From Planctomycetota bacterium (GTDB lineage: Bacteria; Planctomycetota; Phycisphaerae; Sedimentisphaerales; Anaerobacaceae): a DNA stretch of 64,000 nt. Position numbers and translations under genes: made by a program. Position 1 is the first letter of the stretch. Every line of letters begins with the position of its first letter. The notes under the pieces are model-generated. The model was not told the DNA's origin and did no database searches. It saw nothing but the letters and a program-made list of their open reading frames with translations. Positions 2,598 through 57,171 of the stretch are shown piece after piece. The stretch lies in contig JAUWIG010000043.1 in NCBI GenBank assembly GCA_030605475.1, positions 20,405 to 84,404 on the forward strand. Reading direction: 5' to 3'.

Positions 2598-5500
2598 ATG
2601 AAAAAGATAATTCTGTTGAGCCTTCTGGTACTATTCGCAAGTGGAGTTTCAGCTTTAGGAACTACGCCAAAAGGTAACGGCGTTGTTATTATTACACTTG
2701 ACCCTGTAAATACAACTAATAATGGTGGCATTTTGCCACTTGCAGAATCATATGTGTGGTGGAATTGGAGTGGTTCGCTATCGATACCTGATGGCTCAAG
2801 TGGCTCCGGAACGTGGGTTGGAATAAACTGTAATACACCGAGTGGTATTCCAAGTGGTGCAGTTGTAACCAAAGTAAAAGTTCATCACGAGATCACTCAC
2901 ACCTTTATTGGAGACCTAGAGGTCAAGATATATAATGAACAAACAAGCCATGTCTGGATGGTTCGAAATAGGGAAGGGGGATCAGCAGACAATATAAACG
3001 AAACTAAAACCGAATATAGTATTTTTGATGGGGACAATCCAACACAGAAATGGTACTATCGGGTTCGGGATGTCTGGGGAGGAGATACTGGCACGTTAGA
3101 TGTTATGCAACTGTATGTATATTATGAAACAGCAGCCGAATCAGGTTATATTGTTTCAGCATCTCCATCTTCGTTTACAGGTGGTGTTGCTACTACAGTA
3201 ACTGTTCGTGTGCGTAATACCGGCGATAGCGATGATATGATTATTGAGTGGGACTCCAAGCCATCTGGTTGGAGTATCAACCCAGGATATCGAAATCCAT
3301 ATATGACATCAGGCAGCTATTATAATGCCATCTTTACGGTTACGCCCCCTGTGTCTGGTGGCAGCGGAACAATTGTATGGAAGTTTTACGACGATGATAT
3401 TCTTAGCAATGACCTTCTTGATACATATTATCAGTCTGTTAGTGCAACAGCACAAAAACCAGATTTTATAATAACAGACCTCGATACCGATCCAATCAGT
3501 CCTGTATGTGGCGAACCTTTTACTGTATCGGTTACCGTGACAAATCAAGGGCCGGTTGCTGGAAATGCAGGTTATCTGGATATGTGGATAAACAAGTCAT
3601 CCACCGCCAGTTGTGGGGAACAGGGCGATGACAGATTTTATGTTGGAACGTTGAACGCTGGGCAAAGCTACTTTATAACATTCTTTGGAGGCGCCTTATC
3701 TGCGGCACCATCGCCAGGAGGAAAGACTCTGCGGGCGTTTATTGACAGCGGATGTATCACTTCGGAGGAAATCGAGAGTAATAACCAGTCAACGCATAGT
3801 TACACAGTAATAGAGACCATATCTCCTCCTACCAGTATAAGCGGTGTTTCGTCTACTTACGTAGATAAGAATGAGAGTTATACAGCCAGTGGCGCAACGA
3901 GCAGTGGTGGTCACAGTTTGCAATATCAGTTCGATTGGGGAGACGGAAACTTTTCTGGTTGGGGTAGTGCAACGCAAAGTCATAGCTACGGTAATAGCTC
4001 GACATATAACGTAAAAGCTCGGGCAAGATGTGCTACCCATCCAACTTATGTTTCTTCATGGTCAGAGACGTTAAAATCAGTATCGGTCAGTTGGGTCCAA
4101 TTAAATACTAACGTTAACCCTATTGGGGCGGGTTCTGTTACCAAAAGTCCTGATAGGCCAGTAGGTTATTCTTATGGTGAAATTGTCCAACTTACTGCCA
4201 ACGCAAATTCAGGATATATTTTTGACTATTGGAGTGGGGATGCGTCAAGGTCATCAAATCCCATTTCCATAACAATGAACTCAAACAAAACAATTACGGC
4301 CAATTTCAGGTCAACTCCCGTTATCCGAATTGAGCCAAATTTATTGGAGTTCGAATATTCCCCCAGTATCGGCAGCTCAGCGGCAAGCTATGACCGCGAA
4401 CCTCTTCAAGTCGAGAGGTTTATGGAATCTTCCGTGAACGAGCAGGTACAGTTGCCTGCCTATGATGGGCCTCAACAAAGCAAGACCGGACCAACTCCAC
4501 CTCCAGGTGTTCCAGAAAAAATCCGTGAGATTGGTATCCTAGCTGAGGTTACACTTCCTTCAGTACCACCTTATTCTTGGAGGCATGGTTGCGGACCTAC
4601 AGCAGTAGGCATGGTTGTAGGTTATCATGATAGCCAAAGCTATAATGACCTCATCACAGGAGATGCTTCAACACAGACCGACGAAGTCAACCAGGCAATA
4701 GCTTCGGGAGGAACATCTGGGAGTCCTTATCCCTCGGGTTCAGAACAACATTATGAGGATTATTCCCGCCCCGAAGACCCACCTCCAGGGGTGATGCAAA
4801 CCGACGATTATATCACCCAAGCTCGCATACCTCATTCTGACAACTGCATTGGGGATTATATGGACACATCCAAGAGCACACGCGACAACCGTTACGGCTG
4901 GAGTTGGTCCAGTGATGTTGGGCCATCGTTTGTCTCTTATGTGGATCAGCAAAATTTAAGCTACAACCCATCCTACCAACAGTACCAAATGGGCAGCACG
5001 CTCACTTGGAACATTCTTACCACAGAAATAGACAATGGTCGACCCATGGTTTTCCTCGTTGACACTGATGCTGATGGAGGCACAGACCATTTTGTGACAG
5101 TTGTGGGATATCGAGACACGCCTTCCCAGCAATATGGATGTCTAGACACTTGGGCCCCAGCCGATATTGTCAGGTGGTGTGACTTTGCACAGATGAGTGG
5201 CGGGCAACCTTGGGGAATTTGGGGTGGATGGTCCTTTAGTCTTGCACCACTAAGCGAAGATTCTTTTACAATCTATAATGACGGAACAGCGGATCTTGAA
5301 GTAAACAGCATTTCTAAGAGGGATGGTGATGCCTGGCTGGCTTCCTGGGCTCCAGATGCACCATTCACAATAGTCCCAGGCGGAAGCCAAACTGTGGTTG
5401 TGAATATTGACGGGGCATTGGGTGCCCCGGGACTTAATGAAGAGCAATTGATTGTTTTAAGCAATGATGACGACAAGAGTCCATATCCCGGTGGTGTATA

Positions 5501-45833: not shown

Positions 45834-46964
45834 TTATTCTATGACGTGGATGTTTTTCTTTCTGCACATATCCTTGAATATCTTCGGCCAAACGGTGGCA
45901 CTGACCTCTCCAATGTGGGCTTTTTTGAGCAGTAACATAAAGGTACGGGACTGGCCGATGCCTCCGCCGACGCTGAGCGGGATTTCGTTGTTCAGGATTG
46001 CCTGGTGGTACGGGAGCTTCAGGAAATCAAGCTGGCCGGAAATCTCCAGCTGCTTTTTGAGCGTTTCGGCATTAACGCGGATACCCATTGATGTCAGCTC
46101 GTGGCGGCGCTTTGTCACCGGGTTCCAGACAAGGATGTCACCGTTAAGGCCGTGCATAGGTCTGCCGTCGTCGGAGGTAGTCTCAGTGACCCAGTCATCG
46201 TAGTCAGCGGCCCTGAGTTCGTGGGGGTAGCCGTCCTTGAGCACCCAGCCAATCCCGTAGATGAACATCGCGCCGAGGTCTCTGGCAATTTCTGTTTCTC
46301 GCTGCTTGCGCGGCAGGTCCAGGTAGCGGTCAAGTATGCCTTCGGCGTGTATGAAAGTGAGCTTGTCGGGCAGGTCTGGGTATTTATCTGTTTTTAGCTG
46401 GGGGAAAAGTTGCTGGACGTGGGCCTCAGCGCCTTTGATGACCTTCCAGATTTTCTCTACGATTTGCCTTAGGAACTGGAGGTTTCGCTGGTCTTTTGTT
46501 ATCGCCAGCTCCCAGTCCCACTGGTCCACATAGGCGCTGTGGTCGTGGTCGAGGAAGTAGTCCTTGCGGACGGCGCGCATATCAGTGAGCAGGCCCTCTC
46601 CGATGTCCATTTCGAACTGCTTGAGGGCGATGCGCTTCCACTTGGTCGCGGCTTGCACGACCTGGGCGTCGATTGGGTTCTTGTCGTGGTCGTTTGAGAT
46701 GTGGAACCCGATTGGGGTCCGTGAGCCATCACGGTCGAGGAGGTCGTTGATGCCGCTTTCGACGTCTACGATAAGAGGAACCGTAACGCGAATGAGGTTA
46801 AGCTCTTTGCAGAGATTGGCCTCGATGTAGTCTTTCACAGCATAGATGGCATTTTGCGTTTGCTTTGGGGACAGTAGAGAAGTGTAATCCTGTGGTAGGA
46901 TTTTCTCCAGCTCGGTATAGTCGCCAATACCTGGCCCGGCCAGGTCTGCTTTCTTGTCTGCCAT
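45834..46964 (-). CDS. asnA: aspartate--ammonia ligase (asparagine synthetase A)
   Basis: HSAYVDQWDWE and class-II synthetase-like blocks. The start is set at ATG 46964 with AGGAGAC 7 nt upstream. Confidence 0.8.
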   Translation of the reverse strand: MADKKADLAGPGIGDYTELEKILPQDYTSLLSPKQTQNAIYAVKDYIEANLCKELNLIRVTVPLIVDVESGINDLLDRDGSRTPIGFHISNDHDKNPIDAQVVQAATKWKRIALKQFEMDIGEGLLTDMRAVRKDYFLDHDHSAYVDQWDWELAITKDQRNLQFLRQIVEKIWKVIKGAEAHVQQLFPQLKTDKYPDLPDKLTFIHAEGILDRYLDLPRKQRETEIARDLGAMFIYGIGWVLKDGYPHELRAADYDDWVTETTSDDGRPMHGLNGDILVWNPVTKRRHELTSMGIRVNAETLKKQLEISGQLDFLKLPYHQAILNNEIPLSVGGGIGQSRTFMLLLKKAHIGEVSATVWPKIFKDMCRKKNIHVIE

Positions 46965-47081
46965 TGTGTTGTCTCCTGAGTGTTTTGTGGATAGGCACAT
47001 TCAATATAACATAGCTGGTCATTACTTAGGTGCGTTGCAAATAATAATCCCGGTGTTGATGCTTTTCAAGATTATTTTAGT
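46902..47081 (-). repeat. direct repeat copy A (asnA first about 21 codons, RBS and promoter-proximal block)
   Basis: Block 1 at 46902-46977 and block 2 at 47037-47081 are near-identical to 48645-48720 and 48778-48822. Confidence 0.85.
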
Positions 47082-47175
47082 ACAAAATCATATTTTATCT
47101 GGTATTTACTGAATATCACAGCAAAGATACAAACATTGCTCTATCTAAGCTTGGGACTAAAGCGGTCGGACGAGT

Positions 47176-48597
47176 CTACAAGTAGCCAAGACTCTTGAGT
47201 TTGTTGATTTCTTCCGGAGTGAGTGGTGGAAGCGAAGAGCCTGCTTTGCTAATACCCATAAAACTTTTCAGTTGTGCAAACATCGAATCGACGAGTGGGG
47301 TGTGCTTAGAGACGATATCAATTTTCTCCTTCGGGTCATTCTGCAGGTCAAAAAGCCGTTTTTCTTTTGTCAATTTATTATAATGGAGCTTATAGCGAGG
47401 ATGACGGACGGCACGTTTGATGTCATGCTTTACATCGTATTCCTGGGGCACTACGCTCTCTTTGCTGCCCTCGGCAAAGATGTAGCGCCGGCCCAGTTGA
47501 GTATCACTTTTTTCCCATAACCGGCACAGGTCGATACCGTCCATCGAATAAGGTATAGCAATGCCGAGCAGAGAGAGTACGGTGGGCATAACATCTACAA
47601 GGGAAATGATGTTGCTGAGGCGTTTTGGTTGGCCAAGCCCGGGTCCCCGCATGATGAGAGGGATGTGGATGAGTTCCTGGTACTGGGTTTGGCTGTGCAG
47701 GACTCCACCGTGGTCCAGGAATTCCTCGCCGTGGTCAGAAGTGACGATGATTAGCGAATTATCAAGTAGTCCCCTGGTTTCAAGGAGCTTTAGCAGCCGG
47801 GCGATGCCGTCGTCGAGCTGGCGAATGCTCGCGTCGTAGAGGTCAATCAGGTGCTCAGCGTCCACTTGGTTTAGCGAGACCAAATTCTTACGGAAAAGGG
47901 ATAGTTGCACGGTAGTGCCGTCTGCAACTCCCTTGTATGGACGGACGAACTGCTTCTCATAACGCAGCGTTGAACTATAATCGCTGTGGACGTCGTAGTA
48001 ATGCAGGAATAGGAAAAACGGCTGACTGCTGTTTTTCGATAGCCATTTTACGGTGTGGTGCTCAACTTCCGATGGCATCCACAGGTCAGGGATTTCCTCC
48101 ACGTAGGTAAAATCATCGAATCCTCTATCAAGCCCCCATTTTCGGCTGAGATATATGGAATTGACAACCGTTGCGGTTGAGAAGTCGTGTTCCTTAAGAA
48201 CATCGGCCAAAGTTACGACGTCGGTCGGCAAGTATTTGTCGAGTGATTTTAGACCGTGCCGATTAGGGTACAATCCGGTCAGCATGGACCCATGGGAGGG
48301 CAAGGTCCAGGGCGAAGTCGCCGTAACGTCCTCAAACAGCAGGCCCTGGGAGGCCAATTTGTCGAGTGTGGGTGAAGTGGGCCTTTGGTAGCCGTAGCAG
48401 CCGAGATGGTCGGCACGTAAAGTGTCAATCGAGATGAGTATGATGTTGGTCGGTCTTATATCAGCTTGCTTTTTCCCGCAGCCTCCCAGCCAAAGGCTAC
48501 CCGGCAGACCCGCCGCCAGACCACCGTAGAGTCCGTACTTCAACATCTCGCGCCGAGTCAGACCTCTGCTGTAAGTTCGCTTTCTACTCATACCCAT
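47176..48597 (-). CDS. sulfatase-like hydrolase (alkaline-phosphatase superfamily) lipoprotein, Thr variant of the active-site motif
   Basis: Tat-like/lipoprotein leader (TRREMLKYG..WLGGCG). SIDTLRADHLGCYGY and SDHGEEF blocks. The active-site position reads T-L-P-S-H instead of C/S-x-P-x-R. Confidence 0.8.
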   Translation of the reverse strand: MGMSRKRTYSRGLTRREMLKYGLYGGLAAGLPGSLWLGGCGKKQADIRPTNIILISIDTLRADHLGCYGYQRPTSPTLDKLASQGLLFEDVTATSPWTLPSHGSMLTGLYPNRHGLKSLDKYLPTDVVTLADVLKEHDFSTATVVNSIYLSRKWGLDRGFDDFTYVEEIPDLWMPSEVEHHTVKWLSKNSSQPFFLFLHYYDVHSDYSSTLRYEKQFVRPYKGVADGTTVQLSLFRKNLVSLNQVDAEHLIDLYDASIRQLDDGIARLLKLLETRGLLDNSLIIVTSDHGEEFLDHGGVLHSQTQYQELIHIPLIMRGPGLGQPKRLSNIISLVDVMPTVLSLLGIAIPYSMDGIDLCRLWEKSDTQLGRRYIFAEGSKESVVPQEYDVKHDIKRAVRHPRYKLHYNKLTKEKRLFDLQNDPKEKIDIVSKHTPLVDSMFAQLKSFMGISKAGSSLPPLTPEEINKLKSLGYL

Positions 48598-48644
48598 TCT
48601 GCCTTACTCTCAACATTATCAAGTGCCAAGCCTGTTCTCAGGAC

Positions 48645-48822
48645 TTTCTCCAGCTCGGTATAGTCGCCAATGCCTGGCCCAGCCAGGTCTGCTTTCTTGT
48701 CTGCCATTGTGTTGTCTCCTAAATGATTCGGGGCAAGCCATCCACAAGCTTCGCTTGAGGCTGCCACCCTACCGACTGCAAATAATAATCCCAGCGTTGA
48801 TGTTTTTCAAGATTATTTTAGT
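48645..48822 (-). repeat. direct repeat copy B (duplicated asnA 5' end and promoter-proximal block) upstream of the sulfatase-like gene
   Basis: It contains the ATG at 48707 plus 21 asnA-identical codons (MADKKADLAGPGIGDYTELEK). The sequence then diverges and stops, overlapping the sulfatase-like start codon. Confidence 0.85.
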
Positions 48823-48849
48823 TAAAAACTCCTTGTAAAATCCCGAGGA

Positions 48850-48903
48850 ATCGGGGCAAGCGTGGGGCCAAATATTTTTGGGACCCGCCTTCACGGGAAT
48901 GAC
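48850..48903 (-). repeat. composite REP-like module, inverted orientation
   Basis: The reverse complement reads gtcattcccgtgaaggcggg...ggccccacgcttgccccgat, the same two-part layout as 44270-44312. Confidence 0.55.
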
Positions 48904-49004
48904 ATTTTTGTAGTGGCTAAGAGATTGGTTTTGCGATAATATATTTGCCATCTTAATCCGAGTGTCTGGATTGTACGTTATCAGGTAGCCGTTAAGGTAA
49001 ATTT

Positions 49005-50102
49005 ATGGGCGAAGAGCAAAAAGATTCAACTTCAGGGACAGTTACAAAGAAAACGGTTCGGCCGGCTTTGATTGTATCAGAGAAAACAATCTCCGAGTAT
49101 TCGATATCCTTACATCATCTATTGGTTGGGCTGGCTGATGAGTCTATTGCTGTGAATCTGGTCTGTCCGCCGGGCTGCGATGTGGATTCGGTTGTATCGC
49201 CCTCTGTTGAGGTCGTCAGGCATCCGGTTTTTCAGCTGCCTTTGATGGGGTATCAAAATAAAAAGATACTTGTTGAACGGCTTGAAAAGTTCAAGCCAAG
49301 CGTTCTACACTGCTTGTGCGAGAGCAAAGCGAAACTTACGAGACAATTGGCGAGACAATTGGATTTGCCTTATGTGTTGACGGTTAATTCGCTGCAGGGG
49401 CGATTCGGTCAGCTTTCTATTTCGTTGAAGCGCTGTGCAAAAATCATAGTGCCGGCGAAGAGCATCGCGGCTAATATCGCGGCAGTTTACCCTAAGTTTG
49501 CCGAACGGATTGAGCAGATAAATATCGGCACTTTCGCGGGAGAGACAAGCGGCTGTTTCCGTGAGCCTGGGCGACTGGCGAGTGTAGTGGTAGGCGGTCC
49601 TTTGAGAAATGAGAGTGAGTTTGAGAAATTGCTTGGGGCGGTTAAGCATCTGGCGATTGAGGGGTATGAATTTATGCTGGTGTTGATAGGCGGGGGGCGG
49701 GCGGAGAGGCAACTGCGGGAATCGCTATCAGCACAGGGCCTTTTACAGATTGTTATTAGTGTTCCGAAATCGGCGCCGTGGCGTTCGGTTCTTGCGGCGG
49801 GCGATATTTTCATTCAGCCTGCAGCCAGCAGTGCCTTTAACCCTTTACTATTAGAGGCGATGAGTGTTGGGGCGGCTGTGGCAAGCTGTAAGGGTGGTGT
49901 TGACGATTTGATTATCGAGGGCAAGACCTGCGTTGTGTTTGACCCGGATGATGAGCTTAGTATAAGAGGGAGTCTGCAGGAGCTGCTCGACAGGCGAGAA
50001 TTTGCACAGCAACTGGCCAGAGGGGCACAGGAATATTTGAGAGAAAATCATACGGTCAGTAAAATGGTTTCTTCTATTTTGCAGATATACCGTGAGGCAT
50101 AA
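49005..50102 (+). CDS. GT-B glycosyltransferase (family 4/1-like)
   Basis: C-terminal half has FIQPAASSAFNPLLLEAMSVGAAVAS (E-x7-E-type block). Confidence 0.7.
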   Translation: MGEEQKDSTSGTVTKKTVRPALIVSEKTISEYSISLHHLLVGLADESIAVNLVCPPGCDVDSVVSPSVEVVRHPVFQLPLMGYQNKKILVERLEKFKPSVLHCLCESKAKLTRQLARQLDLPYVLTVNSLQGRFGQLSISLKRCAKIIVPAKSIAANIAAVYPKFAERIEQINIGTFAGETSGCFREPGRLASVVVGGPLRNESEFEKLLGAVKHLAIEGYEFMLVLIGGGRAERQLRESLSAQGLLQIVISVPKSAPWRSVLAAGDIFIQPAASSAFNPLLLEAMSVGAAVASCKGGVDDLIIEGKTCVVFDPDDELSIRGSLQELLDRREFAQQLARGAQEYLRENHTVSKMVSSILQIYREA

Positions 50103-50178
50103 GAGCGGCTGAAACGCTAAGGGCGGTTTTGGTCGCTGTACAGTAAGTTTATTACGAAGGTTAATAGCTAAGGGGTGT

Positions 50179-51366
50179 ATGATGGAGCGGATGAACAAGG
50201 GAGAACGTTCGGTAAGTCGGATTGTCGAGATTAAAACGCCTGGAGCGATTGTTTTTGGCGTGGGTGCTTGCGAGAAATTACCTGAGCGAATCAAGGCGTT
50301 GTCGAACGGCGCTGTCTTAATTGTGACCGATGCGGGGCTGGTGAAGGCTGGGACAGCAAAAAAGATTAAAGATTTAGTTTCATCAGCAGGGCTTGAGGCT
50401 GGGGTTTTCGATGGTGTTGAGCCCGACCCTGATAAGGAAAACGTTTACAAGTGCCTGGAGATGGTCAAATCCACGGGTGCTCAAGTGCTATTGGGGCTTG
50501 GCGGAGGCAGCAGTCTTGATGTTGCTAAGACGGCCGCAGTTCTAAGTGTAAGTGAGGGTCGATTAGCTGATTACGTGGGAATCAACAAAGTAGCCAAGAA
50601 GGGTCTGCCGACTGTTTTGCTGCCGACCACTTCCGGTACCGGCAGCGAGGTAAGCCCCATAGCTGTTATCTCCGACAAGAAGCAGCATTTGAAATTAGGC
50701 ATTGTGAGTCCGTATCTTTATTGTGATTTGGCTATTGTTGACCCGGGGCTGACGGTAAGCTGTCCGGCTGGTATTACCGCCTCGGCGGGAATGGATGCCC
50801 TTACCCACGCGATAGAGATATATACCAACAAGTTCTCCGTTCCTATTATTGACGCGATAGAGCTTGAAGCAATTCGTTTGATTGGGCGGCACCTTCGCAA
50901 ATGTGTTCAGGACGGAACAGACTTAGTCGCGCGGGAGGGGATGTCTCTTGCAGCTCTTTACGGGGGATTGGGTTTGGGGCCTGTTAATACCGCTGCGGTG
51001 CACGCATTAGCTTATCCATTGGGTGGAACGTTCGATGTCGCTCACGGCCTGGCTAACTCGATACTTCTGCCGTACGTTATGGAGTTTAACCGTCCGGCCC
51101 GCGAAGAAAAATTTGCGAAGATAGCCGATGCTCTGGGGACAGCCGGGGCAGAGAGTATGTCGGATAAAGCAAGCGCTGCGGTAAAGGCGGTTGTTGATTT
51201 GTCAAGGGACGTGGGTATCCCAAAACACATGCGAGATATTAATATTCCGGCGGATGCTATACCGGAGATGGCCGCCGGTGCTATGAAGGTGACGCGGCTG
51301 CTAAACAATAATCCGCGAGAAATGACGCTTGGAGATATCGAAGGGATATATCGGCTTGCCTATTGA
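50179..51366 (+). CDS. iron-containing alcohol dehydrogenase
   Basis: GLGGGSSLDVAK, TTSGTGSEV and His-rich metal site (DALTHAIE, HALAYPLGG..HG). Confidence 0.85.
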   Translation: MMERMNKGERSVSRIVEIKTPGAIVFGVGACEKLPERIKALSNGAVLIVTDAGLVKAGTAKKIKDLVSSAGLEAGVFDGVEPDPDKENVYKCLEMVKSTGAQVLLGLGGGSSLDVAKTAAVLSVSEGRLADYVGINKVAKKGLPTVLLPTTSGTGSEVSPIAVISDKKQHLKLGIVSPYLYCDLAIVDPGLTVSCPAGITASAGMDALTHAIEIYTNKFSVPIIDAIELEAIRLIGRHLRKCVQDGTDLVAREGMSLAALYGGLGLGPVNTAAVHALAYPLGGTFDVAHGLANSILLPYVMEFNRPAREEKFAKIADALGTAGAESMSDKASAAVKAVVDLSRDVGIPKHMRDINIPADAIPEMAAGAMKVTRLLNNNPREMTLGDIEGIYRLAY

Positions 51367-51415
51367 TGTTGAGGGCAATTCCTGTTGATACTAATCATGA
51401 AATTGGAGTCTTAAG

Positions 51416-53164
51416 ATGAAGGGTTTTTTTAATAAATTGCTGAGGGTCGACCTTTCTAAGCGGAGTTTCGGTTATGAAGACATTGGCGATGAGGTTTTGC
51501 GCCAGAGCTTAGGGGGCAAGGGATTAGGCTGCTATCTTCTGATGAAAGAGAATCCGCCGGGAGTTGACCCCTTTTCACCGGAAAACATTTTTGTAATTGC
51601 TACAGGGCCGGTGACGGGGACGAAGATGTGGAGCCAATCAAGGTTTGGAGTTTATTCGAAAAGCCCGGCTACCGGGGGCTACGGTGAGTCGTATTGCGGG
51701 GGGGAACTTGCGCCAAAGATTAAAGGCTGTGGTGTTGATGCTATTATTCTGCAAGGTAAATGCGAGGGCCTTTCATTTCTTGTGATTGACGAGAATGGGG
51801 CTTCTTTTCAGGATGCTTCGGGCCTTAAAGATAAAGATACCGCCGAGAGCGAAGAATACATCCTGGCACGAGCACCTGAAGAAGCCGGAGCTATGACAAT
51901 AGGGCCTGGGGGTGAAAACAGAGTGGCATTTGCCTGTATAAAAATAGATAGATGGCGCAGCCTCGGCCGGGGCGGTATGGGTGCTATCCTCGGCTCAAAG
52001 AATGTAAAGGGGATTGTATTTGCCGGTACAAAACAATGCGAGATAGAGGACGAGCAGCTGCTGAGGAAGGTCATTAAGGACGTAGCCAAAAAAGGGAAAG
52101 AGTCACCGGTCACAAAAAAGTATCAGCAATTAGGGACACCGATGCAGGTTGCGGTGACCAATAAGCAGAATTGTTTTCCGACGAGATACTGGCAGTCCGG
52201 TCACTTTTCAAAATGGGAGAATCTGTCGGCTGACTATATGCAAAAGAATTTCGAGGTCAAGGCGAAAGGGTGTCCGAACTGCTTTTTGAACTGTACGAAG
52301 CACTCGCGCATCAAACAGGGTCGTCATAAAGGGCTGGAATTAGATGGGCCGGAGTTTGAAACGATATACGCTATCGGCGGACTTAATGCTATCGACAGCT
52401 TAGAGGAAGTGGCCTGGCTGAACGTTATTTGTGATGAGCTGGGAATCGACACGATGAGCGCGGGCAACATTTCTTCTTTTGCCATCGAGGCCTGCAAAAG
52501 AGGTAAAATTGATTTTGAGATAGATTATAACCAGCCGGACCGCGTGGCTGAGCTTTATAGACTTATCGCTAAGAATGAGGGTGTAGGGGCGTTATTAGGT
52601 AAAGGGATAAAACACGCGGCGAAGGAACTGGGGCTGGAAGATATCGCCATACACGTGAAGGGCCTGGAGCCGGCAGGTTTCGACCCGAGAGTGCTTAAAG
52701 GTATGGGGCTTACCTACGCCGTTGCCGCCCGGGGGGCGTGTCACCTGCGGGGGACATTCTACAAAGCGGAACTGTCCGGAGAGATGGACAAAAATCAAAT
52801 TGAGGGCAAAGCCAGGCTGATGGTAGATTATGAGGACCGGGCGGCACTTTTTGACTCGTTGATTTTGTGCAGGTTTTATAGAGATTTTATTCTGTGGGAC
52901 GAGCTGGCGAGTATCATCAAGGCCACAACGGGTATGGACCTTAGTAAAAGTGAGCTTGAGGTGCTGGCAAACAAAATTACGCAACAGAGCCGTGAATACA
53001 ACAGACGAGAAGGGCTGGACAGCTCGAAAGACACATTGCCGAGGAGATTTCTGACCGAGGCGACCGAGGAGGGTGCAAAGCTGTCTGGGCAGGAACTTGA
53101 GATTATGATAAAAGAATACAACGATATCCGAGAATCGAGAGAGCGAGAAATTAGAAGTGTCTAA
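51416..53164 (+). CDS. aldehyde:ferredoxin oxidoreductase (AOR) family tungsto/molybdo-pterin enzyme
   Basis: N-terminal LRVDLSKRSF..GGKGLG..ATGPVTGT pattern. 4Fe-4S ligand motif CPNCFLNC (CxxCxxxC) plus distal LILCRF. Confidence 0.85.
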   Translation: MKGFFNKLLRVDLSKRSFGYEDIGDEVLRQSLGGKGLGCYLLMKENPPGVDPFSPENIFVIATGPVTGTKMWSQSRFGVYSKSPATGGYGESYCGGELAPKIKGCGVDAIILQGKCEGLSFLVIDENGASFQDASGLKDKDTAESEEYILARAPEEAGAMTIGPGGENRVAFACIKIDRWRSLGRGGMGAILGSKNVKGIVFAGTKQCEIEDEQLLRKVIKDVAKKGKESPVTKKYQQLGTPMQVAVTNKQNCFPTRYWQSGHFSKWENLSADYMQKNFEVKAKGCPNCFLNCTKHSRIKQGRHKGLELDGPEFETIYAIGGLNAIDSLEEVAWLNVICDELGIDTMSAGNISSFAIEACKRGKIDFEIDYNQPDRVAELYRLIAKNEGVGALLGKGIKHAAKELGLEDIAIHVKGLEPAGFDPRVLKGMGLTYAVAARGACHLRGTFYKAELSGEMDKNQIEGKARLMVDYEDRAALFDSLILCRFYRDFILWDELASIIKATTGMDLSKSELEVLANKITQQSREYNRREGLDSSKDTLPRRFLTEATEEGAKLSGQELEIMIKEYNDIRESREREIRSV

Positions 53165-53243
53165 AGTGAGCTAAAGTGGCTGAAGTTAGGTGGTGGGGTA
53201 AGCCCCAGCGTACAAGTATCGAGCATCGAGAGTAAATTTTCTT

Positions 53244-54593
53244 ATGAAAACAGTTTCGCTGAAGTACGGTAAAGAGCAGATAGAAGTCAATGTTCCTGAC
53301 TCGTCTGATATTTTATGCGGGGGGAAAGTTGAACCATTACCAGAGCCGGCAAAAGAGATTTGGCGTAGTTTGAATGAGCCGATAGGGACAGCGCCTTTGT
53401 CCGGATTGGCCAAAGGCTGCAAAGACGCTGCCATTGTGGTGTCGGACAGTACGCGGCCGGTGCCCTATAGCGGAGCAAATGGTATTTTGAAGCCTATAAT
53501 AGATACGCTTAAGAAAAACGACATCGGCCATATCAAGATTATCGTTGGAACCGGCACTCATCGCCCAATGGAGGAGAGTGAACTAAGAGAGATGCTTGGC
53601 GAATCTGCTTTTCAAGCGGGGGTGGAGGTCATAAACCACGTGGGTACGGATAGCTCAATGCTTCGCTCGATAGGCCAAACTGAGCGTACGCCCGATGTGA
53701 GCGTTAACAGTTATTACTTAGATGCTGAGCTAAAGATTGCCACCGGCCTTGTGGAACATCACTACATGGCTGGTTTTTCCGGCGGGCGCAAGGCGATTTG
53801 TCCCGGCATCTGCGGCCAAAGCGTGACGTACGGCTTTCACTCCGCCCCGATATTAAATGAGAAAAATACCGCGAGCCTGGTTTTAGAAGGCAACCCCTGC
53901 CACGAAGAGGCCCTGCGTATTGCAAAAATGGCTGGCGTGGATTTTAGTGTCAATGTTACGATTGATAACAACAAGCAGCTTACGGGTGTTTTTTCCGGCG
54001 GTCTGGAAGAGGCCCACCTCGCGGCGGCAGAGCATATTCGCGGCTCTATTTGCGTTGAGCTGGACAGGTTATATGATGTGGTTATCACCCAGGCAGATAA
54101 AGTTGGCGTCAATCATTACCAGAGTCTGAAGGCTGCGTTTGAAGCCAGCAGGGCGGTGAAACCCGAGGGCCGAATCGTGCTTTTAGCCAGGCTAACCGAC
54201 CCTGACGCGGTCGGCACTGAGGATTATAAGAGAATGCTTTCTCTGCTCGTCCGCTTAGGTCCTGAGAAACTTTGCGCCAGGCTTTTGTCCGACGACTGGA
54301 CTTTTGAGCCTGAGCAGTGGCAGGTCCAGATGTGGTCAAAGGTTTTCAAAAGGATTGGCAATCCGAAAAATTTATACACGTGCGCTATGCGGTTGGCTGA
54401 AGTTCCATGCGGATTGATAGCTGAGACCAACGTAGCTGCTGAAATCAAGCGTATTGGCGGCGAAGATGAATTGGCCTATGCCGAACGAATGGTCCAGACG
54501 ACCGTCGATAAGATATTAGCTGTATGTCCGGAGAGCAAGGCGCTCGTTTTGCCCGATGGGCCTTATACAGTGCCAAGTTACTCTCGTGGCTAA
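53244..54593 (+). CDS. LarA-like nickel-pincer-cofactor-dependent racemase/epimerase (DUF2088 family)
   Basis: VSDSTRP, GTGTHRPM, HYMAGFSGGRKAICPGI (Lys tether position) and GNPCHEE blocks as in lactate racemase LarA. Confidence 0.75.
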   Translation: MKTVSLKYGKEQIEVNVPDSSDILCGGKVEPLPEPAKEIWRSLNEPIGTAPLSGLAKGCKDAAIVVSDSTRPVPYSGANGILKPIIDTLKKNDIGHIKIIVGTGTHRPMEESELREMLGESAFQAGVEVINHVGTDSSMLRSIGQTERTPDVSVNSYYLDAELKIATGLVEHHYMAGFSGGRKAICPGICGQSVTYGFHSAPILNEKNTASLVLEGNPCHEEALRIAKMAGVDFSVNVTIDNNKQLTGVFSGGLEEAHLAAAEHIRGSICVELDRLYDVVITQADKVGVNHYQSLKAAFEASRAVKPEGRIVLLARLTDPDAVGTEDYKRMLSLLVRLGPEKLCARLLSDDWTFEPEQWQVQMWSKVFKRIGNPKNLYTCAMRLAEVPCGLIAETNVAAEIKRIGGEDELAYAERMVQTTVDKILAVCPESKALVLPDGPYTVPSYSRG

Positions 54594-54618
54594 TAGCCGC
54601 TGCTGAAGAGTCAGGATA

Positions 54619-56253
54619 ATGAATAAAAAAGTGTTTGACAGGTATGGTACTGTTTGGGCCTGTGTATTTCTGGTGGTGGCGACACTTGCCGTCTTTAGTC
54701 AGGTCCATAAACATGAGTTTCTCGACTTCGACGACTCCGAATATGTTACCGAGAATGAGCATGTGCAAAGCGGATTAACCCGTGATAGTATCATCTGGGC
54801 TTTCACTACCGGTCACGCCAGTAACTGGCATCCGTTAACCTGGTTGTCGCTTATGCTGGACTATCAACTCTTCGGATTAAGGGCCGGCGCTTTTCATATA
54901 ACCAATTTACTGCTTCATACAGCAAATACCCTGCTGCTGTTTCTGGTTTTAAGGAAGATGACGAGGTCGCTGTATCGGAGCGGCTTTGTGGCATTGGTTT
55001 TTGCACTGCATCCGCTGCACGTGGAATCGGTGGCGTGGGTGGCTGAGCGCAAAGATGTCCTGAGCACCTTGTTCTGGCTGTTGACGATGTGGGTTTATAG
55101 CAGTTATGCTCAGCGGGGCGGGGGAGTGCGATATTTGATTATCCTTTTGCTCTTTGGGCTGGGTCTTATGGCCAAGCCGATGCTCGTTACACTGCCCTGC
55201 GTATTATTGCTTGTTGACTACTGGCCTTTGAGGCGTCTGGAGTCTTCCGGCCGGGACGGGGAGGGTGTGAAGAAACAGCGAACTCGACTGACAGTGGCAC
55301 GGCTGGTTCTGGAGAAAATACCTCTGTTTGTCCTTTCGGTGATTTCAAGCATTATTACAGTTATTGTGCAGCGAGGCGGAGGTGCCGTGATTTCCGCCGG
55401 GGCTTTACCAATCGGGTGGCGTGTCAGCAACGCGATTGTTTGCTATGTAGTTTATATACTAAAGATGATTGTGCCGGTGAGATTAGCAGCCTTTTATCCC
55501 AATATGTCGCCGCCTGCTTTGATAGAGACGATTGGAGCGGCGGTGGCGCTGGTCTGTATAACTATTGTTGTTGTTCGTGGCGCCAGGCGGTGGAGGTACC
55601 TTGCCACGGGATGGCTGTGGTATATAGGGACATTGGTGCCGGTAATCGGTGTCGTGCAGGTAGGGGCCCAGGCGTACGCTGACCGCTATGCGTACGTGCC
55701 GTTGATTGGACTGTTCATTATCGTCGGCTGGCTGGTTCCGGATATTCTTGCCGGCTGGCGGTATAAAAAAATTGCGATTTGGCTGTGCACGTTCTTAGCG
55801 GTGGTGCCAATGGCAATTGCTGCAACATTGCAGGTAGGGCACTGGCGTAATACGGTCGCGCTTTTTGAACATACTCTTGCCGTTACTGAAGATAACTGCG
55901 TTGCGCACAACGGCCTGGCCAATAAGTACGGCAAGCTCGGTCAAATTGATAAATCTATTGAGCACGGCAGAGAAGCGGTGCGGATTTGCCCTCAATACCG
56001 TATGGCACATTATAACCTGGGGATGGGCTATTACCACAAAGGTGAATTAGAGAAAGCGATTGAGCGTTGGCAGGAGGCCCTGCGGCTCAAGCAGGATTAC
56101 AGGGAGGTCAACTTCAATATCGGTGTTGCTTTCGAGGCCCTCGGTGAGGCTGACAAGGCTGTAGAGTATTTTCGCAGTGAGCTGGCCATCAATCCGGGGC
56201 ATAAGCGTGCACAGCAAAAGCTTGACGCTCTGCTGACGAGACATCCTCATTGA
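54619..56253 (+). CDS. PMT_2/TMTC-like membrane glycosyltransferase with C-terminal TPR repeats
   Basis: HEFLDFDDSEYVTENEHV loop motif, about 10 TM helices and C-terminal TPR repeats (AHYNLGMGYYHKGELEKAIERWQEALRL). Confidence 0.7.
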   Translation: MNKKVFDRYGTVWACVFLVVATLAVFSQVHKHEFLDFDDSEYVTENEHVQSGLTRDSIIWAFTTGHASNWHPLTWLSLMLDYQLFGLRAGAFHITNLLLHTANTLLLFLVLRKMTRSLYRSGFVALVFALHPLHVESVAWVAERKDVLSTLFWLLTMWVYSSYAQRGGGVRYLIILLLFGLGLMAKPMLVTLPCVLLLVDYWPLRRLESSGRDGEGVKKQRTRLTVARLVLEKIPLFVLSVISSIITVIVQRGGGAVISAGALPIGWRVSNAIVCYVVYILKMIVPVRLAAFYPNMSPPALIETIGAAVALVCITIVVVRGARRWRYLATGWLWYIGTLVPVIGVVQVGAQAYADRYAYVPLIGLFIIVGWLVPDILAGWRYKKIAIWLCTFLAVVPMAIAATLQVGHWRNTVALFEHTLAVTEDNCVAHNGLANKYGKLGQIDKSIEHGREAVRICPQYRMAHYNLGMGYYHKGELEKAIERWQEALRLKQDYREVNFNIGVAFEALGEADKAVEYFRSELAINPGHKRAQQKLDALLTRHPH

Positions 56254-56295
56254 ACGACGAAGCGGCTGGATGGCGGGACGTAGGGTCGTTTTTAG

Positions 56296-57171
56296 TTATA
56301 ACAGGCCGTAATTTTTCAAAGTTTGTTTGAGGATAATTTTTTTGCTTTCATCCATAGGGACCATAGGCAGACGCAACTCCTCCGAAGCCATATTCAGCAT
56401 TGCCATCGCGGCCTTGATTGGTATGGGGTTGGTTGCCAGGCCAAGCAGGTTCCTGCAGAGGACAAAGAGCTTGTTGTGCCATTTGCGGGCTGAGACCAAG
56501 TCTCCTGCGAGGATTAAATCGGTCATTGCTTTTACGTCCGCGGGGACGATGTTTGCCACTACACTAATGACGCCATTGCCGCCGACCGAAGCAATCGGCA
56601 AGGTAAGCGAATCATCACCTGAGACAATGGTTATATCGCAGCGGGTTGCGATTTCGCTGGCCTGGTCGAGCTTGCCGGAGGCCTCTTTGATTGCGACGAC
56701 GTTTTCGATTTCTTCAGCCATTCGTGCGATGGTATCCGGGGCCAGGCCGGTTCCGCCGCATCGGCCGGGGATGTTGTATAATACTATCGGCAGGTTGACC
56801 TCTTCTGCTATTGCTTTGAAATGCTGATAGAAGCCTTCCTGCGTGGGCTTGTTGTAATATGGACAAACCTGCAGCGTGGCATCGGCACCGACCTTTTTTG
56901 AGAATGCGGTCAGCTCGATTGCCTCTGCAGTTGAGTTTGAGCCGGCACCGGCAATAACGGGGACTTTTCCGCCCACGGCTTTGACGACCCTTTCGATGAC
57001 CTTTTTTTGCTCGTCGTGACTTAGTGTCGGCGATTCGCCGGTCGTGCCGCAGGGCACTATCGCATCTATACCGTTTTCCAATTGGAAGTCAATCAGCTCG
57101 TCGAGAGTTCGAAAATCTATTTCGCCATCCTGAAAGGGCGTAATCAACGCCACCATTGCACCTGTAAGCAT
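56296..57171 (-). CDS. dapA: 4-hydroxy-tetrahydrodipicolinate synthase
   Basis: GAMVALITPF, VPCGTTGESPTLS, YNIPGR and AIKEASG (Schiff-base Lys). Confidence 0.9.
   Translation of the reverse strand: MLTGAMVALITPFQDGEIDFRTLDELIDFQLENGIDAIVPCGTTGESPTLSHDEQKKVIERVVKAVGGKVPVIAGAGSNSTAEAIELTAFSKKVGADATLQVCPYYNKPTQEGFYQHFKAIAEEVNLPIVLYNIPGRCGGTGLAPDTIARMAEEIENVVAIKEASGKLDQASEIATRCDITIVSGDDSLTLPIASVGGNGVISVVANIVPADVKAMTDLILAGDLVSARKWHNKLFVLCRNLLGLATNPIPIKAAMAMLNMASEELRLPMVPMDESKKIILKQTLKNYGLL

What the first reader, a model, noticed from the sequence alone, without database searches (positions are those of the whole stretch)
50179..54593. Fe-alcohol dehydrogenase, tungsten-type aldehyde:ferredoxin oxidoreductase and LarA-like racemase cluster
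These are three consecutive same-strand genes with short gaps. The AOR has the CxxCxxxC cluster motif. The LarA homologue keeps the GTHR, GGRK (cofactor-tethering Lys) and NPCHEE blocks, but no larB/C/E genes are in the window. My hypothesis is a branch point for 2-hydroxy-aldehydes such as lactaldehyde from fucose or rhamnose, which fits the sulfatase-rich, glycan-degrading context. In it, the ADH would reduce the aldehyde to the diol, the AOR would oxidise it to the 2-hydroxy acid with ferredoxin reduction, and the LarA-like enzyme would racemise or epimerise that acid. To my knowledge AOR-LarA linkage is not a described pathway.
Basis: inference. Interest (0 to 1): 0.6.

Follow-up and report, generated by a model that had tools for sequence, protein, structure and literature searches.

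The report
Alcohol–aldehyde–hydroxyacid racemase gene module
Three adjacent genes in an uncultured anaerobic planctomycete (an iron alcohol dehydrogenase, a tungsten-type aldehyde oxidoreductase and a nickel-cofactor hydroxyacid racemase) form a real accessory module whose parts are swapped for equivalent enzymes in relatives, which points to an undescribed route from small diols or hydroxy-aldehydes to hydroxy-acids.

Summary
Three same-strand genes with 49-79 nt gaps encode a group-III Fe-ADH, an AOR-family enzyme and a LarA-superfamily racemase, each with intact catalytic motifs and under purifying selection.

The trio is an accessory insert between a core glycosyltransferase gene (GT4) and dapA, and the AOR is rare in the family (3 of 276 genomes). 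The exact trio recurs only in close relatives.

In other relatives the same ADH–AOR backbone carries a different nickel-pincer (NPN) isomerase, NCBIfam "group 22". In one contig an ordinary NAD(P) aldehyde dehydrogenase replaces the AOR next to ADH and LarA. On the AOR tree the two isomerase types are interleaved. These swaps argue for a shared pathway: diol to 2-hydroxyaldehyde to 2-hydroxyacid, then inversion at C2.

The genome has tungstate uptake genes (WtpA/C), pterin synthesis, LarB and LarE, but no LarC.

The fucose/rhamnose source is not supported: no FucI or GH29 fucosidase was found. Glycerate is as good a candidate substrate as lactate, because LarA orthologues sit next to glycerate kinase in two places.

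No paper searched describes this linkage. My verdict is a new variant of a known kind, of moderate interest.

The parts
49005..50102 (+). GT4-family glycosyltransferase. It is a single-copy core gene of the family and marks the upstream edge of the variable slot. It is probably not part of the pathway but may be co-transcribed with it.
   Evidence: Pfam Glycos_transf_1 and Glyco_transf_4. Orthologue found in 233 of 276 family genomes. dapA follows it directly in at least 6 of 29 sampled genomes.
50179..51366 (+). Group-III iron-containing NAD(P) alcohol dehydrogenase. Inferred role: diol or alcohol to aldehyde and back.
   Evidence: Pfam Fe-ADH plus ADH_Fe_C. Best NCBIfam hits are all below their cut-offs: GbsB 313, ErcA 313, lactaldehyde reductase 310 bits. 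Best PDB hits are DhaT 3BFJ (256 bits) and FucO (about 230 bits). Metal and NAD motifs are present. dN/dS against L114 is 0.17.
51416..53164 (+). Aldehyde:ferredoxin oxidoreductase family enzyme, single subunit. It carries the [4Fe-4S] and bis-pterin binding motifs and is probably a tungsten enzyme.
   Evidence: Pfam AFOR_N plus AFOR_C. Best PDB hit is P. furiosus AOR 1AOR, 318 bits. Motifs are present. Orthologues at 68-92% identity are abundant in metagenomes but occur in only 3 of 276 family genomes. dN/dS is 0.075. WtpA, WtpC and Moa/Moe genes lie on contig C32.
53244..54593 (+). LarA-superfamily (NPN-dependent) 2-hydroxyacid racemase of the LAR/SAR type.
   Evidence: Pfam Lar_N. NCBIfam LarA 271 bits, below the cut-off of 460. 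Best PDB hit is Isosphaera pallida LarA 9EID/9EIA, 207 bits, E 3.5e-60. R71, H106, H173, K183, H199, Q293 and K296 are conserved. dN/dS is 0.19.
54619..56253 (+). PMT_2 plus TPR membrane protein, a lineage-specific addition to the slot. It belongs to a multi-copy family and is probably unrelated to the pathway.
   Evidence: Pfam PMT_2 plus TPR. At least 10 paralogues at about 50% identity lie elsewhere in the genome. It is absent from the syntenic clusters L114 and L123.
56296..57171 (-). dapA, a core gene that marks the downstream edge of the variable slot.
   Evidence: TIGR00674, 355 bits, above its cut-off. It holds the same position in L114, L119, L120 and L123.

Best explanation
The three genes form one accessory catabolic module for a small vicinal diol or 2-hydroxyaldehyde.

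- The Fe-ADH interconverts the alcohol and the 2-hydroxyaldehyde. Candidates are 1,2-propanediol/lactaldehyde and glycerol/glyceraldehyde.
- The tungsten-type AOR oxidises the aldehyde to the 2-hydroxyacid (lactate or glycerate) and reduces ferredoxin.
- The NPN-dependent LarA inverts C2, so that whichever enantiomer is made is delivered to a stereospecific downstream enzyme. Candidates in this genome are the GlcD-type FAD/Fe-S dehydrogenase (contig C37) and glycerate kinase (contig C55).

Shown: the family membership and intact catalytic residues of all three; purifying selection; co-inheritance; cofactor supply apart from LarC; and repeated exchange of equivalent parts in relatives.

Inferred: that the three act on one carbon skeleton, the direction of flux, and the identity of the substrate.
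For: 1. Cluster variants in the same GT4...dapA slot:
- ADH-AOR-LarA in the window, L114 (AOR 92% identical) and L123 (78%). L128 shows AOR-LarA.
- ADH-group22-AOR in L119, L120 and L124/G489. L115 has the same order in another context.
- The 419-aa protein in those clusters scores 464 bits against NCBIfam NF052515, 'nickel pincer cofactor-dependent isomerase, group 22' (cut-off 400).
- ADH-ALDH-LarA in L137. A 487-aa NAD(P) aldehyde dehydrogenase sits where the AOR would be.

2. Eight of nine distinct ADH-containing clusters carry an NPN isomerase. These genomes hold only about two such genes each.

3. On the AOR tree the LarA-type and group-22-type clusters are interleaved. AU tests reject monophyly of either type (p 1e-7 and 3.5e-41). 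The isomerase partner was therefore exchanged at least twice.

4. The LarA specificity positions are Y/F, M, W, Q/E. This resembles the LAR signature F, F, W, E/Q, and Q at the last position goes with glycerate/lactate preference (PMC11770544).

5. LarA orthologues lie next to glycerate kinase in G022 and L135.

6. Cofactors and candidate downstream enzymes in the genome:
- WtpA 378 bits (cut-off 355), WtpC, MoaA, MoaC, MoeA, MoaB and MobA.
- LarB 306 bits and LarE 325 bits.
- Glycerate kinase and a 959-aa GlcD-type fusion protein.

7. dN/dS is 0.075-0.19, and dS is similar for all cluster genes between the window and L114.
Against: - The exact trio is found only in close relatives.
- Among LarA orthologues at 51-69% identity with readable flanks, about 10 of 16 have no ADH or AOR nearby: L021-L023, L101, L102, L129-L131, L133 and L162.
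- The slot is a variable region, so co-location could partly reflect an insertion hot spot.
- ADH-AOR occurs without any isomerase in L121/L122. The AOR stands alone in L116, G059 and G635.
- LarC is not detectable in this genome.
- No promoter, terminator or RNA evidence for co-transcription could be obtained.
- The LarA in the ALDH variant L137 carries a frameshift.
- The AU-test groups were named after a first tree had been seen.
- The substrate is not identified. ADH scores do not separate FucO, DhaT, GbsB or ErcA types.
Confidence: 0.55

Rival explanations
1. There is no shared pathway. ADH-AOR is a general alcohol/aldehyde module (for example ethanol to acetaldehyde to acetate and back, as in many anaerobes). 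LarA is an independent lactate racemase. They lie together only because the GT4-dapA interval is a hot spot that collects accessory genes.
For: - ADH-AOR occurs without an isomerase in L121/L122 behind a sigma-54 two-component system.
- GT4-LarA occurs without ADH or AOR in G032 and L129.
- The slot is empty in at least 6 of 29 sampled genomes.
- This window's slot also picked up an unrelated PMT/TPR gene, and a sulfatase was inserted nearby.
- Most LarA orthologues are not linked to an AOR.
Against: - Two different NPN isomerases and two different aldehyde-oxidising enzymes recur in the same tight cluster with the same ADH.
- Group 22 sits between ADH and AOR with gaps of about 10-240 nt, and does so also outside the GT4 slot (L115).
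- The isomerase type is incongruent with the AOR tree.
- The chance that one of about two NPN isomerase genes per genome lands next to ADH-AOR repeatedly is very small. This is a rough inference, not a formal test.
Confidence: 0.25
2. The enzymes are the same but flux runs the other way, as an electron sink. LarA equilibrates D/L-2-hydroxyacid (for example lactate). The AOR reduces it to the 2-hydroxyaldehyde with reduced ferredoxin, and the ADH reduces that to the diol (for example 1,2-propanediol), which is excreted.
For: - AOR-plus-ADH reduction of acids to alcohols is established in acetogens and in Pyrococcus (my own knowledge, not checked here).
- The organism appears to be a fermentative anaerobe with a tungsten enzyme.
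- The enzymes are reversible in principle.
Against: - In L137 the AOR is replaced by an NAD(P)-dependent, non-acylating ALDH. Such enzymes are effectively irreversible towards the acid, which favours oxidation.
- The glycerate-kinase neighbours of LarA orthologues point to catabolism of the acid.
Confidence: 0.1
3. The module is a lactaldehyde branch point fed by fucose or rhamnose from sulfated glycans.
For: - Sulfatases lie in the window and genome.
- The ADH resembles FucO (310 bits).
- A weak split RhaD-like aldolase/SDR pair lies on contig C34.
- One group-22 homologue lies near a fucose isomerase in L212.
Against: - No Fucose_iso_C and no GH29 alpha-L-fucosidase were found in the 91%-complete genome.
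- The aldolase/SDR matches are far below their family cut-offs.
- No glycan or deoxy-sugar genes are in the cluster.
- The glycerate-kinase linkage of LarA orthologues suggests another substrate.
Confidence: 0.15

Closest known systems
LarA of Isosphaera pallida (LarAH2/Sar; PDB 9EIA, 9EID, 9EIF), a broad-spectrum short-chain 2-hydroxyacid racemase
   Same: It is the best solved relative (207 bits, E 3.5e-60) and also comes from a planctomycete. All residues that bind NPN and the substrate carboxylate align: its R73, H107, H173, K183, Q295 and K298 match R71, H106, H173, K183, Q293 and K296 here. It shares M at the second specificity position and the W-Q pair.
   Different: The window's protein belongs to a distinct orthologous group. 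It scores below every NCBIfam equivalog cut-off (271 against 460). It has Y/F instead of L at the first specificity position. The 2020 gene-context survey found no conserved context for the Sar group, whereas this protein sits with ADH and AOR.
Pyrococcus furiosus AOR (1AOR) and bacterial tungsten AORs paired with alcohol dehydrogenases (ethanol or acid metabolism of Desulfovibrio, Geobacter/Pelobacter and acetogens; my own knowledge)
   Same: Same two-domain family. The Cys motif, pterin motifs and Glu/His positions are nearly co-linear with 1AOR. The ADH-AOR gene pair is present, and tungstate uptake (WtpA/C) and pterin synthesis genes are in the genome.
   Different: Here the pair is joined to an NPN-dependent racemase or epimerase, which implies a chiral 2-hydroxy substrate. 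No such linkage was found in the literature searched. The protein is about 580 aa with no AorA/AorC-type partner genes.
E. coli lactaldehyde branch (FucO lactaldehyde reductase and AldA lactaldehyde dehydrogenase)
   Same: The logic is the same: one 2-hydroxyaldehyde is either reduced by an Fe-ADH or oxidised to the 2-hydroxyacid. The ADH resembles FucO (about 230 bits in PDB, 310 bits in NCBIfam). The L137 variant uses an NAD(P) ALDH, like AldA.
   Different: Oxidation here is ferredoxin-linked through a tungsten-type AOR, and a racemase is added. The fucose genes (FucI, GH29) were not found. The ADH does not reach the FucO equivalog cut-off.
NCBIfam NF052515 'nickel pincer cofactor-dependent isomerase, group 22' (uncharacterised LarA homologue)
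   Same: It occupies the same ADH-AOR cluster in relatives (L115, L119, L120, L124). By eye, it keeps His/His/Lys/His motifs that resemble LarA's (GSHG, KPHTDF...VKM, GNHKG).
   Different: It is only remotely related to the window's LarA: no significant BLASTP match and only marginal Pfam Lar_N/DUF362 hits. It lies between ADH and AOR rather than after AOR. Elsewhere it sits with a DUF1537 acid-sugar kinase and PdxA, which suggests C4 sugar acids.

Membership tests
LarA superfamily (NPN-dependent 2-hydroxyacid racemases/epimerases) | LarA N-terminal domain and overall homology to solved LarA structures | tested here: met
   Pfam Lar_N E 1.6e-49. PDB 9EID 207 bits, 2YJG 157, 6D6Z 156 and 5HUQ 143.
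LarA superfamily (NPN-dependent 2-hydroxyacid racemases/epimerases) | Two catalytic histidines, the Lys that tethers NPN, the Ni-ligand His, and the Arg/Gln/Lys that hold the carboxylate | tested here: met
   H106, H173, K183, H199, R71, Q293 and K296 are invariant in 7 orthologues. They align with LarA_Ip H107, H173, K183, R73, Q295 and K298. H199 is assigned by its spacing of 16 residues after the Lys, which is an inference.
Lactate racemase proper (NCBIfam NF033504 equivalog) | Score above the curated cut-off (460 bits) | tested here: not met
   The score is 271 bits. It is the best family but lies below the cut-off, as do MAR LarAH6 (252), LarAH5 (219) and LarAH10 (201). I therefore file the protein as a LAR/SAR-like LarA homologue, not as 'the' lactate racemase.
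LarA superfamily (NPN-dependent 2-hydroxyacid racemases/epimerases) | NPN biosynthesis genes LarB, LarE and LarC in the genome | tested here: inconclusive
   LarB 306 bits (cut-off 175) and LarE 325 bits (cut-off 150) are present. LarC is not found by TIGR00299, by PF01969 or by tblastn with relatives' LarC. The genome is 91% complete. However, 171 of the 239 LarB-positive family genomes also lack LarC.
LarA superfamily (NPN-dependent 2-hydroxyacid racemases/epimerases) | Racemase or epimerase activity with bound nickel-pincer cofactor | not testable with these tools
   This needs expression with LarB/C/E and chiral assays.
Aldehyde:ferredoxin oxidoreductase (AOR) family | AFOR_N plus AFOR_C domains; four Cys for the [4Fe-4S] cluster; two DxxGxD/C pterin motifs; catalytic Glu and His | tested here: met
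   Pfam E 4e-67 and 9e-102. C286, C289, C293 and C485; D340ELGID and D480SLILC; E313 and H443. These are nearly co-linear with 1AOR (318 bits). The residue roles come from knowledge of P. furiosus AOR.
Aldehyde:ferredoxin oxidoreductase (AOR) family | Supply of tungsten (or molybdenum) and metallopterin | tested here: met
   The contig C32 cluster holds WtpA (378 bits, cut-off 355; TIGR03730 331, cut-off 243), WtpC (366 bits, below its cut-off of 440), MoeA, MoaA, MoaC, MoaB/Mog and a MobA-like gene. The metal actually bound cannot be tested.
Group-III iron-containing alcohol dehydrogenases | Fe-ADH fold, GGGS nucleotide motif and the Asp/His/His/His metal ligands | tested here: met
   Pfam Fe-ADH plus ADH_Fe_C. 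GGGS 108-111, D206, H210, H275 and H289. PDB DhaT 256 bits.
Lactaldehyde reductase FucO (TIGR02638 equivalog) | Score above the curated cut-off (523 bits) | tested here: not met
   The score is 310 bits, tied with GbsB (313), ErcA (313) and SarD (296). Substrate class cannot be assigned from sequence.
Conserved ADH-AOR-NPN isomerase gene module (proposed here) | Recurrence of the three functions in tight same-strand clusters across relatives | tested here: met
   Eight of nine distinct ADH-containing clusters include LarA or group 22. The sample is small and comes from one planctomycete lineage plus metagenome contigs.

The most novel reading that the evidence does not exclude
An undescribed anaerobic pathway in which a tungsten aldehyde:ferredoxin oxidoreductase produces a chiral 2-hydroxyacid that a nickel-pincer racemase or epimerase then inverts. 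The module is built in interchangeable versions (LarA or group-22 isomerase; AOR or ALDH). It operates in a planctomycete family that makes NPN enzymes without the only known nickel insertase, LarC, which implies an unknown way of loading nickel into the pincer cofactor.
Probability: 0.35. Interest if true: 0.75.

Novelty: new variant of a known kind. Interest (0 to 1): 0.55.

Why it matters
Physiological roles are known for very few LarA-family enzymes, and their gene contexts have rarely been informative. A recurrent link to an alcohol dehydrogenase and an aldehyde-oxidising enzyme gives a concrete, testable role: stereochemical funnelling of 2-hydroxyacids made from diols or hydroxy-aldehydes in anoxic sediments. 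It also offers a first substrate lead for the uncharacterised 'group 22' isomerases.

The link also joins two rare metal cofactors, tungsten-pterin and nickel-pincer, in one short pathway.

The side observation may matter more. Most genomes of this family keep LarB and LarA homologues but lack LarC, which points to an unknown nickel-insertion step.

Tried and rejected
- **Promoter and terminator scan of 48500-56600.** Counts were at shuffle level, so it was uninformative.
- **Rfam scan of 48500-56400.** I ran it to look for a Moco/NiCo-type riboswitch. No match at E ≤ 1.
- **Literature searches.** I combined LarA or lactate racemase with AOR, tungsten, lactaldehyde, propanediol, Planctomycetota and gene neighbourhood. 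Nothing relevant turned up. The 2020 LarAH context table lists no AOR (COG2414), Fe-ADH (COG1454), ALDH (COG1012) or glycerate kinase (COG1929).
- **AOR search in a 400-genome phylum sample.** There were no hits, so it gave no neighbourhood information.
- **GT4 as part of the pathway, for example a glycosyl-hydroxyacid synthase.** Rejected as the main reading. GT4 is a single-copy core gene (233 of 276 genomes) and is often followed directly by dapA.
- **G489 carrying both isomerases, since its contig ends inside the AOR.** Rejected. No LAR-type Lar_N match exists anywhere in that 94%-complete genome.
- **The 419-aa protein against LarA by BLASTP.** No similarity. Its membership came only from the NCBIfam profile.
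- **No structure was predicted.** The sequence matches to solved structures were sufficient.

Full report
**1. What is there**

The window is G000:C7:20405-84404 of a 2.4-Mb, 58-contig, 91%-complete genome. The closest loci carry titles of uncultured Planctomycetota/Pirellulales MAGs.

On the + strand lie five tightly spaced ORFs:
- a GT4 glycosyltransferase (49005-50102);
- a group-III Fe-ADH (50179-51366);
- an AOR-family protein (51416-53164);
- a LarA homologue (53244-54593);
- a PMT_2/TPR membrane protein (54619-56253).

They are followed on the - strand by dapA and pdxJ, and preceded on the - strand by a sulfatase and asnA. The gaps are 76, 49, 79 and 25 nt.

**2. The three proteins**

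*ADH.* It matches Fe-ADH and ADH_Fe_C. It has the GGGS motif and the D206/H210/H275/H289 metal ligands. Its best solved relatives are 1,3-propanediol oxidoreductase (256 bits), methanol dehydrogenases and FucO (about 230 bits). In NCBIfam it ties between GbsB, ErcA, lactaldehyde reductase and SarD, all far below their cut-offs. Substrate class cannot be read from the sequence.

*AOR.* It is closest to P. furiosus AOR (1AOR, 318 bits). Its Cys, pterin and Glu/His motifs are nearly co-linear with 1AOR. It belongs to a very conserved clade of about 578-aa proteins: the 120 best database hits are 68-92% identical and come from several phyla.

*LarA.* Its best solved relative is the broad-spectrum LarA of Isosphaera pallida (9EID/9EIA, 207 bits). 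T. thermosaccharolyticum LarA, Mar2 and L. plantarum LarA follow.
- The residues that tether NPN and bind the substrate carboxylate in LarA_Ip (R73, H107, H173, K183, Q295, K298; PMC11851776) align with R71, H106, H173, K183, Q293 and K296. All are invariant in seven orthologues.
- At the four positions used to predict specificity (LarA1 F175, F176, W358, T359; PMC11770544) the orthologous group has Y/F, M, W, Q/E. This is close to the lactate-racemase signature F, F, W, E/Q.
- In that paper, Q at the last position goes with lactate/glycerate preference.
- The protein scores below every NCBIfam equivalog cut-off (271 against 460 for LarA). I call it a LAR/SAR-like LarA homologue.

Pairwise dN/dS against the cluster in L114 is 0.17 for ADH, 0.075 for AOR, 0.19 for LarA and 0.17 for GT4. 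dS is similar for all four (0.37-0.61). All are under purifying selection and appear co-inherited.

**3. Cofactor supply**

LarB (306 bits, contig C9) and LarE (325 bits, contig C47) are present.

LarC was not found with TIGR00299, with PF01969, or by tblastn using LarC from two relatives.

A second LarA-superfamily gene lies on contig C3. It is the NF052594 putative hexonate epimerase (663 bits) and sits in a sugar-acid cluster.

Contig C32 carries, in one block, WtpA (378 bits, cut-off 355), a permease-sized ORF, WtpC, a MobA-like gene, MoeA, MoaA, MoaC and MoaB/Mog. Tungstate uptake and pterin synthesis are therefore available, which favours a tungsten enzyme.

**4. Is the neighbourhood conserved?**

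- GT4 is a single-copy core gene, present in 233 of 276 family genomes. In at least 6 of 29 sampled genomes dapA follows it directly. The ADH-AOR-LarA genes are therefore an insert in a variable slot.
- The AOR is rare in the lineage: 3 of 276 family genomes and 0 of 400 in a phylum-wide sample.
- Orthologues of LarA occur in 2 of 60 relatives, neither next to an AOR.
- Among 80 genome loci with LarA homologues at 39-61% identity, only one has an AOR nearby, and it is only 33% identical.

Contigs carrying close AOR orthologues show a richer pattern:
- L114 (AOR 92% identical): asnA(-), GT4, ADH, AOR, LarA, dapA(-).
- L123 (78%): GT4, ADH, AOR, LarA, dapA(-), pdxJ(-).
- L119 and L120 (79% and 77%): GT4, ADH, a 419-aa protein, AOR, dapA(-), pdxJ(-).
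- L124 = G489 (83%): GT4, ADH, the 419-aa protein, AOR, then the contig ends.
- L115 (87%): a PLP enzyme, ADH, the 419-aa protein, AOR.
- L121/L122 (79%): a sigma-54 two-component system, ADH, AOR.
- L116, G059 and G635: the AOR alone.

The 419-aa protein has no Pfam match above threshold. It scores 464 bits against NCBIfam NF052515, 'nickel pincer cofactor-dependent isomerase, group 22' (cut-off 400). By eye, it keeps His/His/Lys/His motifs that resemble LarA's. G489 has no LAR-type LarA anywhere, so the two isomerases are alternatives.

A metagenome scan with an alignment of LarA orthologues added:
- L128: AOR (80%) directly followed by LarA (66%).
- L129: GT4-LarA, as in G032.
- L135: LarA followed by glycerate kinase, as in G022.
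- L137: GT4, ADH (72%), a 487-aa NAD(P) aldehyde dehydrogenase, then LarA (69%, with one frameshift). The aldehyde dehydrogenase is nearest to GucD/2,5-dioxovalerate dehydrogenases (561 bits, below their cut-off).

The same ADH is therefore found with either of two unrelated aldehyde-oxidising enzymes and either of two distantly related NPN isomerases.

**5. Independence of the events**

On a maximum-likelihood tree of 12 AORs, two clades appear:
- one starred clade (95/93) contains L123 and L128 (LarA type) together with L119 and L120 (group-22 type);
- the other (84/87) contains the window and L114 (LarA type), L124 and L115 (group-22 type), L121 and L116.

AU tests reject trees that hold the LarA-type or the group-22-type AORs together (p 1e-7 and 3.5e-41). 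One caveat applies: I named these groups after seeing a first tree.

On the LarA tree the planctomycete orthologues form one group (100/99). The AOR-linked copies fall in two separate, fully supported pairs that match the AOR clades. The isomerase partner of the ADH-AOR backbone has therefore changed at least twice.

With about two LarA-superfamily genes per genome, repeated chance placement beside ADH-AOR is very unlikely. This is a rough argument, not a formal test.

**6. Mechanism proposed**

The simplest reading is a three-step module:
1. The ADH interconverts a vicinal diol or polyol and its 2-hydroxyaldehyde.
2. The AOR oxidises the aldehyde to the 2-hydroxyacid and reduces ferredoxin. 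In L137 the ALDH does this with NAD(P).
3. The NPN enzyme inverts C2, so the acid fits a stereospecific consumer.

Arguments for the oxidative direction are the replacement of the AOR by a non-acylating ALDH and the glycerate-kinase neighbours.

Candidate substrates:
The genome has a 959-aa GlcD-type FAD/Fe-S fusion protein that could be a D-lactate dehydrogenase.
- *Glyceraldehyde/glycerate.* LarA orthologues are adjacent to glycerate kinase in G022 and L135, and a glycerate kinase is present in this genome.
- *C4 sugar acids*, for the group-22 version. A 64%-identical homologue sits with a DUF1537 acid-sugar kinase and PdxA. From my own knowledge, that is the threonate/erythronate pathway context.

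The fucose/rhamnose source is not supported. No fucose isomerase and no GH29 fucosidase were found. There is only a weak, split RhaD-like aldolase/SDR pair.

**7. Comparison with what is known**

ADH-AOR pairs are familiar in anaerobes (my own knowledge). LarA homologues are abundant in Planctomycetota (PMC11770544).

I found no paper linking LarA-family enzymes to AOR, Fe-ADH or ALDH. The 2020 context survey lists none of those COGs for any LarAH group and found no conserved context for the I. pallida Sar group.

The enzymes are ordinary members of known families. The module and its interchangeable architecture appear to be new.

**8. Limits**

- The promoter, terminator and Rfam scans were uninformative.
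- The set of cluster variants is small (about a dozen), comes from one lineage, and is mostly metagenome contigs.
- The L137 LarA carries a frameshift.
- LarC is missing.

**9. The LarC question across the family**

Across the family, Lar_N genes occur in 242 of 276 genomes, LarB in 239, and canonical LarC in only 68. Among the 111 high-quality genomes the counts are 106, 103 and 39. Whole genera are LarB+/Lar_N+/LarC-, and several single-contig genomes are among them.

The absence of LarC is therefore a trait of the lineage, not an assembly gap. The conserved LarA residues and low dN/dS argue that the enzymes are still used, so another route of nickel insertion is likely. This was not followed further.

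**Verdict**

The functional-module reading has a probability of about 0.55, and the substrate is unresolved. Novelty: a new variant of a known kind. Interest: 0.55.

Noticed in passing
Own genome and 275 family genomes; LarB at G000:C9:5165-5794, LarE at G000:C47:85261-86043: LarA-superfamily genes (242 of 276 genomes) and LarB (239 of 276) are nearly universal in this family. Canonical LarC (PF01969) is present in only 68 of 276 genomes (39 of 111 high-quality ones). Whole genera and single-contig genomes are LarB+/LarC-. This suggests an unknown nickel-insertion route for the pincer cofactor.
   Followed up: partly
L119:4038-5297, L120:4679-5938, L115:2833-4092, L124:6559-7818; L210:5001-8598: The uncharacterised 'group 22' NPN isomerase (NF052515) sits between ADH and AOR in relatives. 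In another planctomycete contig it sits next to a DUF1537 acid-sugar kinase and PdxA. This is a lead that it epimerises C4 sugar acids.
   Followed up: partly
L039-L099 and L141-L188 (e.g. L087:5000-9400): In Spirochaetota and Bacillota, LarA homologues 38-47% identical to this one are preceded by a distant Fe-ADH-family gene (23-29% identical to the window's ADH). Often a split transketolase precedes that, and PdxA-like and TctA-type transporter genes follow. This is another recurrent LarA/Fe-ADH pairing.
   Followed up: partly
window 46902-48822 (sulfatase 47176-48597, minus strand): The sulfatase gene lies between asnA and GT4. A duplicate of the first ~33 codons of asnA lies beyond it (tblastn hit at C7:69043-69141, i.e. 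window ~48639-48737). In L114 asnA and GT4 are direct neighbours.
   Followed up: partly
window 54619-56253: The PMT_2 plus TPR membrane protein downstream of LarA belongs to a family with at least 10 paralogues at about 50% identity across the genome (contigs C7, C9, C15, C39, C45 and others). It is absent from the syntenic clusters of relatives.
   Followed up: no
G000:C3:4864-13903: A second NPN-enzyme cluster: the putative hexonate epimerase (NF052594, 663 bits) with ORFs that, by N-terminal sequence only, look like 6-phosphogluconate dehydrogenase, an SDR and a UxaE-like protein. An aldehyde-dehydrogenase-sized ORF and a second distant Fe-ADH lie there too. The SDR and 6-phosphogluconate dehydrogenase neighbours match the group-18 context of the 2020 survey.
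   Followed up: partly
G000:C32:40284-49304 (L126:2284-11304): A compact tungstate-uptake and pterin-cofactor cluster: WtpA, a permease-sized ORF, WtpC, a MobA-like fusion, MoeA, MoaA, MoaC, an MOSC-like ORF and MoaB/Mog. The MoaA ORF is only 269 aa and matches the first ~190 positions of the model.
   Followed up: partly
L137:3235-4568: In the ADH-ALDH-LarA variant the LarA reading frame is split in two (3235-4155 and 4161-4568, in different frames). This is either a frameshift or an assembly error.
   Followed up: no
G000:C34:4836-7382 (L127): The two halves of a 'bifunctional aldolase/short-chain dehydrogenase' (RhaD-aldolase-ADH type) are encoded as separate adjacent genes in reversed order, SDR half first. 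They lie next to an LsrF-like thiolase and a ribulose-phosphate epimerase. Their scores are far below the family cut-offs.
   Followed up: no
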